Below are positions 12,001-15,000 of a DNA stretch of 51,815 bases, piece after piece (the stretch's first letter is position 1; each line of letters begins with the position of its first letter). Source of the stretch: a virus. Lineage: Duplodnaviria; Heunggongvirae; Uroviricota; Caudoviricetes. Location of the stretch: IMG/VR virus record IMGVR_UViG_2563366933_000008. The stretch is one strand, 5' to 3'. Made by a program: the position numbers.

Positions 12001-15000
12001 TCTCGCTGTGTTGCATCGGAAAAGTGATTGCCGGAGGCGCTTATGGCAAAAGTATTTACACAAGAAGAGCGGGAAAAAATCAAGGGACAGGTTGTTGAGC
12101 TAGTACGCCGGAGTGGGCGCGAGACGTTACGGCAACTGGAAGCCAAGACAGGTGCGACAAGATATCTGATGAGCGTTCTCGCCAGAGAGCTGGTTGCCAG
12201 TGGCGATGTATACAACTCTGGCTACGGGTTATTCCCGTCTGAACAGGCTCGTAAGGACTGGCAAAATGCCCGCAAAAAACTATCTAGGGCAAAGGTGAAG
12301 AAACCATCTGTGGTTGATCCGGACCTTATCTGGTCATTACCTGACGGAGAAATACGTCGTTATGACAGGCACCAAAACATAATTTGCTGTGAGTGCCGGA
12401 AGAGCGAAGTTATGCAGCGCATACTGGCATTTTATCAGAGAAATTTTCGTTATTTATAGACGTTACTCGATTAAAGAGCATTAGTTCAGATGTGAATTGA
12501 CATTTTCACGGCACAGGATTGAGCTAGCGTGGTTGTCTGCTTTGTGTCAAAAGCAGATATTACCAGATTTAGACATCTATTCCCGATAGCCCTGCTCTGA
12601 TGCTACACTCTGTGCTATTTTCATGACCCCAATAAAAATATTTATGACTATTGCTGATTTCAAACGGCCTAAATTGGAGCTCCCAAACGGGGCAAACAAA
12701 CTACTACTGCACTCTTGCTGTGCTCCATGTTCCGGTGAAGTGATGGAGGCGCTTCAGGCCTCGGGAATCGACTATACCATCTTTTTCTACAACCCGAACA
12801 TTCATCCTCAGAAAGAGTATTTAATTCGTAAGGATGAGAATATTCGCTTTGCTGAACAACACGGCGTGCCATTTATTGATGCTGATTACGACACAGACAA
12901 CTGGTTTGAACGTGCCAAAGGAATGGAATGGGAGCCCGAGAGGGGGATCCGTTGTACCATGTGTTTTGACATGCGTTTTGAGCGGACAGCGCTGTACGCT
13001 GCTGAAAATGGTTTCAGTGTGATCAGCAGTTCACTGGGCATTTCACGCTGGAAAAATATGCAGCAGGTTAACGACTGTGGGCGGCGAGCCGTCGCGCATT
13101 ATCCGGGCATGGTGTACTGGGATTATAACTGGCGCAAGCAGGGCGGCTCGTCCCGCATGATTGAAATCAGCAAGCGCGAAAAATTCTATCAGCAGGAATA
13201 TTGTGGCTGTGTGTATTCTCTGCGCGATACCAATCTACACCGCAAATCTCAGGGACGCCCTCTTATCAAAATTGGTCAACTCCACTACGGTAAAGAAGAG
13301 AAGGAGTGATTTTATGGAGCACCTTTCTTATTGATTTCATATTGGCGAGGTAGCGGGAGTTAAGTAAAATTGCTGCGGGTGCTTGAGGCTATCTGCCTCA
13401 GGCATGAACACCAAAAGGCAGATAGAGAAAAGCCCCAGTTAACATTACGCGTCCTGCAAGACGCTTAACATTAATCTGAGGCTCAATCTATGCTGAACAC
13501 ATGTAGGTTAGCCTCTTACGTGCCGAAAGGCAAGGAGAAGCAGGCTATGAAGCAGCAAAAGGCGATGTTAATCGCCCTGATCGTCATCTGTTTAACCGTC
13601 ATAGTGACGGCACTGGTAACGAGGAAAGACCTCTGCGAGGTACGAATCCGAACCGGGCAGACGGAGGTCGCTGTCTTCACAGCTTACGAACCTGAGGAGT
13701 AAGAGACCGGGCGGGAGAGTAATCTCCCGCCACCTCTGATATGTCAGGCATCCTCAACGCACCCGCACTTAACCCGCTTCGGCGGGTTTTTTCACGTACT
13801 GTGGTTGTGAATACGATTGGTATTAGGCTATGCTAACAACATTAGCCTGACTAATTTTGTATTGACTTAATTTTTGTTAAAGAACAGGACGGAGAAGTAA
13901 GGGTACACCAATGAGCTACGCACTAAAAAAACACCCGCGATTGACTATTCCCCCTCGCGATAAAAGCGTTGTGGCAGCTCCGCGCCCGGCTATCGATGAA
14001 AATTGCACTCATCGTGAGCAGGTGAAAAATGCTTTCGATTTCGGTTTTTCTCGTTACGAGAAGGCAATGGAAGATCTTTCAAAAGTGTAATGATGGGTAT
14101 TGTGCTCTATGGCTGAGATTGTTGAAGGAGTGCACTACCTTTCGGTTGATGATCTTACTGAAATTAATCGCCTTTTAATTGAGCTTCAAACACCAGATGA
14201 ACCTGTTGGTGTGCTGAGTGTTGATAATTTAAGTTCTTCTCAGTCTCGTCCCAGTATGGTTCGATGGTATGAGCAAACCAACGACATGTTTGTACTGGCA
14301 TCGGTATTGATTGAAAGTCTGATTCAGAATCATCCATTTGCCAATGCAAACAAGCGCACAGCAATGATGGCTGGTGCGGTTTTTTTATTGTTAAATGGAT
14401 ACGAATTAACCGCACCAGGCGATGAAGTTGTGGAGATGGCTGAGGGGCTGGCCTGTAAAATTTATACACGAGAAGAGCTTGAAAATTGGTTGTGTTATTG
14501 GTCTCGTGCGTATGACAGTCGGGAATTATGTAAAACAGGCGCAACTATTGTTTTGTATGAAACTATCAAGCTTAAAATAGAACAGCAAAACTAAAGATGC
14601 TTCTAATGAAAACCCGCTTCGGCGGGTTTTTTGTTGCGTGCTGAATATGCAGGGTGAAAAATAACCATATATTTGATTATATACACAGCCAAAAATAAAA
14701 GTCATTGTACCTGCACATTAAACAATCAAATATACGACGTGAAATAAATATTTTTCAGATTAATATTTTTGTCTCTATGTGGATATAACCTTTTGTACTT
14801 ATAAACCTGGAGGCATCGTGGAAAAAATAAAGAAACTATTTAGTAGCAAATACGCAGTCATACGTCGTGATGACCTGTCAGTTATAGTCGAAATGGATTA
14901 CTTCCCTGAAACCCCAAAATCAATGATGTATCGTAATGGTCGAAAGGCAATTTTTTTACCGATGAGGGTAAGTGACATTATGGGAAATGATAAACTGCTG

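What the first reader, a model, noticed from the sequence alone, without database searches (positions are those of the whole stretch)
13310..13792. Hok/Sok-type type I toxin-antitoxin locus inside the prophage
The 51-aa ORF is a canonical Hok-family membrane toxin, preceded by an in-frame upstream extension in the mok position and a leader with a long inverted repeat (CTATCTGCCT...AGGCAGATAG), and followed by a terminator. The antisense Sok-like RNA should be encoded on the minus strand across the leader and start region, but I could not place its promoter confidently.
Basis: partly seen in the sequence, partly recalled or inferred. Interest (0 to 1): 0.5.

Follow-up and report, generated by a model that had tools for sequence, protein, structure and literature searches.

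The report
Intact hokD-type hok/mok/sok toxin-antitoxin locus
This is an ordinary, complete copy of the well-known hok/sok toxin–antisense-RNA module, almost identical to the experimentally studied hokW-sokW of Shiga-toxin phage Sp5, sitting in a Rac-type prophage of E. coli.

Summary
Window 13342-13792 is a complete hok/mok/sok type I toxin-antitoxin locus. Most of its parts can be placed to the base.

- **Toxin.** The 51-aa Hok (13547-13702) is 100% identical to E. coli K-12 HokD and covers the whole Pfam Hok/Gef model.
- **mok.** The in-frame mok ORF starts at 13490.
- **hok mRNA.** It runs from about 13377 to 13792. Its 5' end (tac, 13377-13388) pairs with a 3' element (fbi, 13752-13764).
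Promoter on the minus strand: -35 TTGCCT (13533-13528), 17 nt, -10 TAACCT (13510-13505). Start is near 13498. The RNA is about 71 nt, ending near 13428 in a strong hairpin plus U-run.

The Sok promoter is too weak a consensus match for a scan to find. It is 100% identical to the sokW promoter of phage Sp5, whose -10 was mutated experimentally and whose RNA was seen on Northern blots (PMC8621323).

The locus occurs in 3926 of 5426 complete E. coli genomes and in many lambdoid phages. It is already known and of low interest.

The parts
13342..13370 (+). hok/mok mRNA promoter: -35 TTGGCG (13342-13347), 17-nt spacer, -10 TAAAAT (13365-13370)
   Evidence: Promoter scan, 9/12 match. A TAnnAT-type hexamer sits at the same distance from the conserved GGGTGCTT start in related loci whose upstream DNA is otherwise unrelated. 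Not tested experimentally here.
13377..13792 (+). Full-length hok mRNA (about 416 nt). The start is inferred; the end is at the terminator.
   Evidence: The Rfam model begins at 13377. The tac-fbi helix begins at 13377. 13377 lies 7 nt after the -10. MFE is -174.3 kcal/mol, z -8.4.
13377..13388 (+). tac element (5' end, GGGUGCUUGAGG). It pairs with fbi in the full-length mRNA.
   Evidence: 12 pairs with one bulge in the MFE structure. The duplex is -21.5 kcal/mol. It covaries with the 3' UTR across loci.
13389..13427 (+).
   Evidence: It is a conserved helix of Rfam RF01794. It is paired in the MFE fold.
13431..13436 (+). ucb-like box (AGCCCC). In the Rfam structure it pairs with the 5' end; in the full-length MFE it pairs with 13478-13483.
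   Evidence: Rfam alignment. MFE pairs 13431-13434 and 13436 with 13478 and 13480-13483. The name is assigned by analogy with R1, from my own knowledge.
13428..13498 (-). Sok antisense RNA (about 71 nt). It has a 5' single-stranded tail (GUUCAGCAUAGAUU), a long hairpin and a U-rich tail. It covers the mok SD and the mok start codon.
   Evidence: K-12 sokC starts at the base aligned with 13498; its 3' end aligns with 13422. sokW of Sp5 is reported as 71 nt (PMC8621323). Its Northern probe YO-592 maps to 13469-13498. The hairpin is -28.2 kcal/mol on the minus strand and -18.4 on the plus strand. The fold of 13418-13498 has z -6.4. The ends were not mapped here.
13505..13533 (-). Sok promoter: -35 TTGCCT (13533-13528), 17-nt spacer, -10 TAACCT (13510-13505)
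   Evidence: Read from the sequence. It is 100% identical to Sp5. The Sp5 'pro-less' mutation (primer YO-421) changes 13504, 13505, 13508 and 13510 (PMC8621323). TTGnnn-17/18-TAnnnT is present on the minus strand within 70 nt upstream of the hok ATG in 28 of 37 distinct hok loci. It is below the scan threshold.
13490..13702 (+). mok reading frame (70 codons, in frame with hok, same stop). SD GAGG is at 13478-13481.
   Evidence: This is the same arrangement as the annotated mokC/hokC of K-12. 29 of 42 distinct related loci have mok 57 nt upstream and in frame.
13547..13702 (+). hok toxin gene (51 aa + stop). SD AAGGAG is at 13532-13537.
   Evidence: PF01848 E 1.2e-23. PHROG 251 'MokW-like host killing' E 2.8e-33. 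100% identical to K-12 HokD, 82% to HokC, 43% to R1-type Hok. RefSeq annotates the identical DNA as hokD.
13685..13688 (+). Tyr47 codon TAC within UACG, a candidate TadA A-to-I editing site (Y47C) at A13686
   Evidence: Sequence. K-12 hokD mRNA, which encodes the same protein, is reported as 6% edited, and this position is a DNA-coded or editing-coded Cys across Hok homologs (PMC12214031). Not tested for this locus.
13710..13731 (+). Stable 3'-UTR hairpin (GGCGGGAGA-GUAA-UCUCCCGCC)
   Evidence: 9-bp perfect inverted repeat. Paired in all folds.
13752..13764 (+). fbi element (CCUCAACGCACCC), complementary to the mRNA 5' end
   Evidence: It lies 49 nt after the stop codon, the same place as in related loci (45-61 nt).
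13771..13792 (+). Intrinsic terminator of hok mRNA (7-bp stem, UUCG loop, U-run)
   Evidence: Not found by the simple scan.

Best explanation
This is a complete hok/mok/sok type I toxin-antitoxin module of the hokD/hokW subgroup. It is carried in the nin-like region of a Rac-type lambdoid prophage of E. coli, between replication genes and the Q-like antiterminator.

**Proposed mechanism.** This follows the R1 and Sp5 paradigms. The sequence features were shown here; the dynamics are inferred.
1. A promoter at 13342-13370 makes a stable mRNA of about 416 nt.
2. The mRNA's 5' end (tac) is locked to a 3' element (fbi), so the full-length form is inert. It is neither translated nor bound by Sok.
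3. Slow 3' trimming removes fbi. The leader refolds and exposes the mok ribosome-binding site.
4. Translation of mok is needed for translation of hok, which is coupled to it. Here mok is in frame, so it reads through hok.
5. An unstable Sok RNA of about 71 nt is made from the opposite strand (start near 13498). It pairs across the mok SD and start codon, blocks mok and hok translation, and makes the duplex a substrate for RNase III.
6. When Sok supply stops, the stable mRNA pool yields Hok. Hok inserts in the inner membrane and depolarises and kills the cell.

**Likely role here.** By homology with hokW-sokW, Sok is lost on prophage induction, and Hok then speeds growth arrest, lysis and phage release. 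Prophage addiction or phage exclusion are possible alternative or additional roles.
For: **Toxin.**
- Pfam PF01848 is matched over its full length.
- The protein is 100% identical to K-12 HokD.
- The identical DNA is annotated hokD in RefSeq.

**Leader.** Rfam RF01794 scores 119.6 bits against a gathering score of 59 over 13377-13552.

**tac-fbi.**
- The MFE fold shows a 12-bp helix between 13377-13388 and 13752-13764, with z -8.4.
- Across distinct loci, 5' GGGUGC goes with GCACC in the 3' UTR (21 loci) and 5' GGCGC goes with GCGCC (19 loci), with one exception. Fisher p = 8e-11, not corrected for phylogeny.

**mok.** It has its own SD and is in frame, as in the annotated mokC of K-12.

**Sok.**
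- The annotated sokC starts at the base aligned with 13498.
- The hairpin is about 10 kcal/mol more stable on the minus strand here. It is more stable on the minus strand in all 37 distinct loci examined.
- The promoter aligns with the R1-type sok promoter.
- It is 100% identical to that of Sp5 hokW-sokW.

**Experiments on the 95%-identical Sp5 locus (PMC8621323).**
- HokW is toxic.
- sokW made from its own promoter neutralises it.
- Mutating the -10 removes the protection.
- sokW RNA is seen on Northern blots and disappears after mitomycin C.
- Deleting the locus halves phage release.
Against: - No expression data exist for this particular copy. Both transcription starts and the Sok 3' end are inferred by homology.
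- The Sok promoter matches the sigma-70 consensus in only 7 of 12 positions and was not found by the scan.
- MFE folding of 3'-truncated mRNAs did not reproduce the tac-ucb 'active' structure. It gave a local 5' hairpin, 13379-13405. The refolding step therefore rests on the Rfam consensus structure and on the R1 literature.
- A preprint reports that chromosomal hokA, hokB and hokC loci did not mediate post-segregational killing (10.1101/2025.08.07.668861). Activity of a chromosomal or prophage copy cannot be assumed.
- The tac/fbi covariation is largely a split between two clades, so it reflects few independent events.
Confidence: 0.9

Rival explanations
1. The locus is a decayed, non-functional remnant, like the hok loci of E. 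coli K-12. Those are interrupted by insertion sequences or, for hokD, cut off from their leader.
For: K-12 hokD aligns with the window only from the hok SD onward and lacks the leader, mok and sok. K-12 hokC has IS186 20 bp after its stop codon. Literature summarised and regards most K-12 chromosomal copies as inactive.
Against: Here every element is intact and in register: both promoters, tac, fbi, mok, the SDs, the full-length Hok and both terminators. The leader, including the sok promoter, is nearly identical to the functional Sp5 hokW-sokW. No IS element or frameshift is present in 13342-13792.
Confidence: 0.07
2. The antitoxin RNA is encoded on the plus strand at 13377-13552, as a literal reading of the Rfam hit 'sok antitoxin' would suggest.
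For: RF01794 is named 'sok antitoxin (CssrC)' and its only strong hit is on the plus strand.
Against: - The model's last positions are the hok start codon, and it contains the hok SD. It therefore describes the sense leader of hok mRNA.
- The minus-strand hit of the same model is 19.2 bits, below threshold.
- The annotated sokC of K-12 is antisense to mokC.
- The Sp5 Northern probe that detects sokW has plus-strand sequence, so it detects a minus-strand RNA.
Confidence: 0.02
3. The molecular mechanism is the same but the biological role differs. The module mainly stabilises the prophage (post-segregational killing of cells that lose or excise it), or it excludes superinfecting phages by abortive infection. 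It does not mainly help lysis on induction.
For: These roles are described for hok/sok in general (introductions of PMC8621323, and of 10.1101/2025.08.07.668861). [quoted passage not shown]
Against: The only direct experiment on a near-identical prophage locus supports the lysis-assist role (PMC8621323). The preprint found no enrichment of hok near defence systems. None of these roles was tested here, and they are not mutually exclusive.
Confidence: 0.3

Closest known systems
hokW-sokW of Sakai prophage 5 / phage VT2-Sakai (Takada et al. 2021, PMC8621323)
   Same: - 95.2% DNA identity over query positions 48-465.
- The leader is nearly identical, and the sok promoter and the mok and hok start regions are identical.
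- Same 51-aa Hok length, a Sok of about 71 nt, and a lambdoid prophage context.
   Different: - A few substitutions in the Hok C-terminus and in the leader: 13396, around 13410, 13452 and 13488.
- The 3' end after fbi differs. The window has a clean terminator hairpin where Sp5 diverges.
- The host prophage is Rac-type at ttcA, not an Stx2 phage.
hokD (relF) of E. coli K-12, Qin prophage
   Same: The Hok protein is 100% identical. The 3' UTR, including fbi, is nearly identical.
   Different: K-12 hokD follows relBE and has lost the whole leader: promoter, tac, mok and sok. The window has the complete locus.
hokC/mokC/sokC (gef) of E. coli K-12
   Same: Same layout, with mok in frame with hok. 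sokC overlaps the first codons of mokC. HokC is 82% identical. The tac sequence is identical.
   Different: The Sok hairpin is 18 nt shorter in hokC. K-12 hokC is disrupted by IS186 after the stop codon. Its sok -10 region differs, and the TTGnnn-N16-18-TAnnnT pattern is not found there.
hok/sok of plasmid R1 (IncFII type; parB)
   Same: Same order of elements and the same spacing of the sok promoter: TTGCGC-17-TATCCT against TTGCCT-17-TAACCT. mok lies 57 nt upstream of hok in the IncFII copy examined. Same tac-fbi principle.
   Different: Only 43% protein identity. The tac/fbi pair is GGCGC/GCGCC instead of GGGUGC/GCACCC. The leader stem is longer and the Sok hairpin shorter. It is plasmid-borne.

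Membership tests
[quoted passage not shown] | Small Hok/Gef membrane toxin of about 50 aa | tested here: met
   PF01848 is matched over 1-42/42, E 1.2e-23. The protein is 100% identical to K-12 HokD. NCBIfam Hok subfamily models give 48.5 bits, below their strict cut-off of 73.
[quoted passage not shown] | mok reading frame with its own SD, starting upstream of hok and overlapping it | tested here: met
   ATG 13490 gives 70 codons, with GAGG 8 nt upstream. The position is the same as the annotated mokC. 29 of 42 related loci have the same 57-nt in-frame arrangement.
[quoted passage not shown] | Conserved hok mRNA leader structure | tested here: met
   Rfam RF01794 scores 119.6 bits against a gathering score of 59, over the full model 1-157.
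[quoted passage not shown] | Long-range pairing of the mRNA 5' end (tac) with a 3' element (fbi) | tested here: met
   The MFE fold shows a 12-bp helix between 13377-13388 and 13752-13764. Covariation across loci is GGGUGC/GCACC against GGCGC/GCGCC, counts 21/1/0/19.
[quoted passage not shown] | Cis-antisense Sok gene with its own promoter and terminator, overlapping the mok translation start | tested here: met
   - Promoter at 13533-13505, identical to the experimentally mutated sokW promoter.
- The sokC start maps to 13498.
- Terminator hairpin plus U-run, more stable on the minus strand.

This is met at the sequence and homology level only.
[quoted passage not shown] | Sok transcript actually made; Hok toxic; Sok neutralises Hok | not testable with these tools
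   Shown for the 95%-identical Sp5 locus (PMC8621323), not for this copy.
[quoted passage not shown] | 3' processing followed by refolding to a translatable, Sok-binding form (tac-ucb) | tested here: inconclusive
   The Rfam consensus pairs 13377-13384 with 13429-13436. MFE folds of truncated RNAs instead give a local hairpin at 13379-13405. Kinetics and processing are not computable here.
K-12-type hokD (relBE-hokD operon) | hokD directly downstream of relE, without its own leader, mok or sok | tested here: not met
   Upstream here is queH followed by a complete leader. K-12 similarity begins only at the hok SD. The protein is HokD, but the locus organisation is the ancestral intact form.

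The most novel reading that the evidence does not exclude
This intact prophage copy may produce up to three toxin forms: Hok, an N-terminally extended Mok-Hok fusion (because mok is in frame), and a TadA-edited Y47C Hok able to form a second disulfide. Prophage induction, through loss of Sok, would use them as a graded lysis timer acting together with the neighbouring Doc-like toxin. None of this is excluded by the evidence. All of it would only extend published work on hokW-sokW and on hokB editing.
Probability: 0.12. Interest if true: 0.35.

Novelty: already known. Interest (0 to 1): 0.08.

Why it matters
It matters little beyond annotation.

RefSeq marks only the hokD coding sequence in the identical DNA. 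The coordinates given here for mok, both promoters, tac, fbi, Sok and the terminators could improve annotation of a module present in most E. coli genomes.

It is also a reminder of two traps:
- The Rfam family called 'sok' describes the sense leader of hok mRNA, not the antisense RNA.
- A real, experimentally supported promoter (sok) can fall below simple consensus scans.

Tried and rejected
- **Promoter and terminator scan.** It found the hok promoter but no minus-strand promoter and no terminator. Both absences reflect the scan's thresholds: the Sok promoter matches 7 of 12 positions, and two Ts can pair into the terminator stem.
- **Truncated-mRNA folds.** Folding 3'-truncated mRNAs (ends at 13735-13750) to see the 'active' tac-ucb conformation did not give it. 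The MFE preferred a local 5' hairpin. I did not pursue constrained or kinetic folding.
- **isrK hit.** There is a sub-threshold Rfam hit to isrK on the 3' UTR, 13711-13792 (25.7 bits against a gathering score of 50). The alignment rests on two generic GC hairpins and a U-tail, and the hit vanished in a narrower search. I judged it a chance resemblance.
- **Other weak Rfam hits.** ceN48, CsrC and rsmX were judged to be chance.
- **Plus-strand reading of 'sok'.** Rejected; see the rival explanations.
- **My recollection of R1 mok.** I remembered that mok is out of frame with hok in R1. The IncFII copy I fetched has mok in frame, so I make no claim about R1 itself.
- **Not used.** Protein homology databases and structure prediction, because the protein is identical to a named E. 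coli protein.
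Full report
**What is at the coordinates**

The window between 13310 and 13792 contains a 51-codon ORF at 13547-13702. A 70-codon ORF in the same frame starts at ATG 13490.

The short ORF matches Pfam HOK_GEF (PF01848) over the whole profile, E 1.2e-23. It also matches PHROG 251 'MokW-like host killing', E 2.8e-33. It is 100% identical to HokD of E. coli K-12, 82% to HokC and 43% to the R1-type plasmid Hok.

It is part of a longer imperfect one. A terminator hairpin with a UUCG loop and a U-run ends the locus at 13771-13792.

**Where it sits**

The 483-bp stretch is 100% identical to two E. coli chromosomes. At 80% coverage or more it occurs in 3926 of 5426 complete E. 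coli genomes, with a median of two copies per genome that has any match. It is annotated hokD or 'Hok/Gef family protein'.

Window 1-28792 is colinear, at 99.8% identity, with a Rac-type prophage next to ttcA in strain K56-43-un. The gene order there is intR, xisR, ralR, recET, kilR, ydaS/T-like genes, replication genes, DUF1627, DUF977, queH, hokD, a 59-aa ORF, a Doc-family toxin, DUF1367/1364/1133 (Q-like), two tRNAs and the lysis genes.

The locus is also in 79 phage records. These include Stx phages, where it is called MokW or HokD, and 'Escherichia phage Rac', where mok and hok are both annotated.

**The sense RNA**

A sigma-70-like promoter lies at 13342-13370: TTGGCG, 17 nt, TAAAAT. The Rfam model RF01794 matches 13377-13552 on the plus strand with 119.6 bits, against a gathering score of 59.

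That family is named 'sok antitoxin'. Its consensus nevertheless contains the hok Shine-Dalgarno sequence and ends in the hok AUG. It therefore models the sense leader, not the antisense RNA.

Folding 13377-13792 gives -174.3 kcal/mol, z -8.4. The first twelve bases (GGGUGCUUGAGG) pair with 13752-13764 (CCUCAACGCACCC) with one bulge. This is the tac-fbi lock described for hok mRNAs. The names and the functional model come from the R1 literature as I know it, and from the summaries in PMC8621323.

I fetched 80 hok loci from species-representative genomes. For each I asked where the mRNA 5' end pairs best in the 3' UTR.
- Loci with 5' GGGUGC have GCACCC 45-56 nt after the stop codon.
- Loci with 5' GGCGC have GCGCC 53-61 nt after the stop codon.
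- One locus, L049, has GGGCGC with GCGCCC.

The counts over distinct loci are 21/1/0/19, Fisher p = 8e-11. This is largely a split between two clades, so it represents few independent events. It is still compensatory in the expected sense.

Folding 3'-truncated RNAs did not reproduce the tac-ucb 'active' structure. It gave a local 5' hairpin instead. That step of the model is inferred, not shown.

**mok**

ATG 13490 has GAGG 8 nt upstream and reads in frame through hok.

The RefSeq annotation of K-12 has exactly this arrangement for mokC and hokC: same stop codon, with mokC 57 nt longer. The alignment puts the mokC ATG on 13490.

Among 42 distinct related loci the frame varies:
- 29 have mok 57 nt upstream and in frame.
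- 9 have it in the +1 frame.
- 4 have a short upstream ORF.

Read on the minus strand, the sequence shows TTGCCT (13533-13528), 17 nt, then TAACCT (13510-13505). A G follows at 13498, 7 nt later.

The predicted RNA starts with a single-stranded tail, GUUCAGCAUAGAUU. Then comes a hairpin of about 20 bp (13431-13483) and CUUUUCUCU. It covers the mok SD and the mok start codon.

The promoter matches the consensus in only 7 of 12 positions and was not reported by the scan. By itself it would not be convincing. The support is comparative and experimental.
1. The annotated sokC of K-12 starts at the base aligned with 13498; its 3' end aligns with 13422.
2. The R1-type locus has TTGCGC-17-TATCCT at the aligned place. 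In 28 of 37 distinct hok loci a TTGnnn-17/18-TAnnnT pattern lies on the minus strand within 70 nt upstream of the hok ATG.
3. The hairpin is 10 kcal/mol more stable on the minus strand than on the plus strand (-28.2 against -18.4). The same direction holds in all 37 distinct loci, with a mean difference of 9 kcal/mol. This is expected if G-U pairs are selected in the antisense RNA.
4. The Sp5 hokW-sokW locus is 95% identical overall, and 100% identical from 13489 to beyond the hok start.

Takada et al. (PMC8621323) reported the following for the Sp5 locus:
- HokW is toxic.
- sokW expressed from its own promoter protects against it.
- A 'pro-less' mutant loses protection and is rescued in trans.
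- sokW is 71 nt, is detected on Northern blots and disappears after mitomycin C.
- Protection partly needs RNase III and Hfq.
- Deleting the locus delays growth arrest and halves phage release.

Mapping their primers onto the window shows that the pro-less changes hit 13504, 13505, 13508 and 13510. These lie in and next to the TAACCT hexamer. Their sokW probe equals plus-strand 13469-13498, ending exactly at the proposed start.

**Differences from the relatives**

Compared with hokC and the R1 type, the hokD/hokW subgroup has an 18-nt apical extension of the Sok hairpin, about 13449-13466. This accounts for 71 nt against 59 nt for sokC. Related loci show compensatory changes in that extra stem, for example G-C to A-T in L034.

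Compared with K-12 hokD, the window has the whole leader. K-12 similarity starts only at the hok SD, because relBE lies upstream there.

**An extra layer**

The Tyr47 codon (TAC, 13685-13687) lies in a UACG context. K-12 hokD mRNA is reported to be A-to-I edited at a low level (6%). The corresponding position is a DNA-coded or editing-coded cysteine across Hok homologs (PMC12214031). I did not test this for the window.

**Verdict**

The locus is a textbook hok/mok/sok module, a near-identical sibling of an experimentally characterised prophage system, and present in most E. coli.

What this analysis adds is base-level placement of the parts, above all the Sok promoter and RNA. The molecular identity is very likely. 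The biological role in this prophage remains inferred; the candidates are lysis assistance on induction, addiction and exclusion.

Novelty: already known. Interest: low.

Noticed in passing
window 1557-1735 (+): There is a full-length RalA sRNA (Rfam RF02694, 215 bits against a gathering score of 170). In the colinear RefSeq record ralR lies here. The same prophage therefore carries a second type I toxin-antitoxin pair.
   Followed up: partly
window 13911-14090 and 14100-14594 (+): Directly after hok lies a 59-aa ORF with no Pfam match (PHROG 2208, unknown function). It is followed 10 nt later by a Fic/Doc-family protein (PF02661; PHROG 577 'Doc-like toxin'; RefSeq 'death-on-curing family toxin'). 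This may be a type II pair whose antitoxin is an uncharacterised small protein.
   Followed up: partly
window 12623-13309 (+): A prophage-borne homologue of epoxyqueuosine reductase QueH (PF02677, E 2e-65) lies immediately upstream of the hok promoter. It is an unusual cargo gene for a lambdoid nin-like region.
   Followed up: no
window 16887-16959 and 16966-17037 (+): Two tRNA genes lie about 3 kb downstream of hok. In the colinear record they are annotated tRNA-Thr and tRNA-Gly and lie between the Q-like gene and the lysis genes.
   Followed up: no
window 13377-13552 (+): Rfam family RF01794 is called 'sok antitoxin (CssrC)', but its consensus is the sense leader of hok mRNA and ends in the hok AUG. 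Automatic annotation with it would put 'sok' on the wrong strand.
   Followed up: yes
window 13711-13792 (+): There is a sub-threshold match of the hok 3' UTR to isrK (RF01394), 25.7 bits against a gathering score of 50, E 0.0017. It rests on two hairpins and a U-tail and was not reproduced in a narrower search. It is probably chance.
   Followed up: partly
L034:~560-600 (Enterobacteriaceae bacterium G50), compared with window 13449-13466: The apical loop of the Sok hairpin is the reverse complement of the window's (TTGCAG against CTGCAA on the plus strand), with the stem kept. It looks as if the hairpin tip had been inverted.
   Followed up: no
L016, L026, L033, L068, L069, L070: hok loci (96-100% protein identity to the window Hok in L016, L026 and L033; 43%, R1-type-like, in L068-L070) occur on contigs labelled Veillonella, Acinetobacter, Xanthomonas, Ferruginibacter, Streptomyces and Oscillibacter. 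Most are short contigs, so contamination of those assemblies is the likely cause.
   Followed up: no
window 13374-13382 and 13759-13767; 13347-13359 and 13724-13736: The tac-fbi complementarity extends 3 nt upstream of the presumed start (TGCGGGTGC / GCACCCGCA). Separately, a 13-nt, 92% inverted repeat links the hok promoter spacer to the 3'-UTR hairpin. Neither is conserved in the related loci I looked at, so both are probably incidental.
   Followed up: partly
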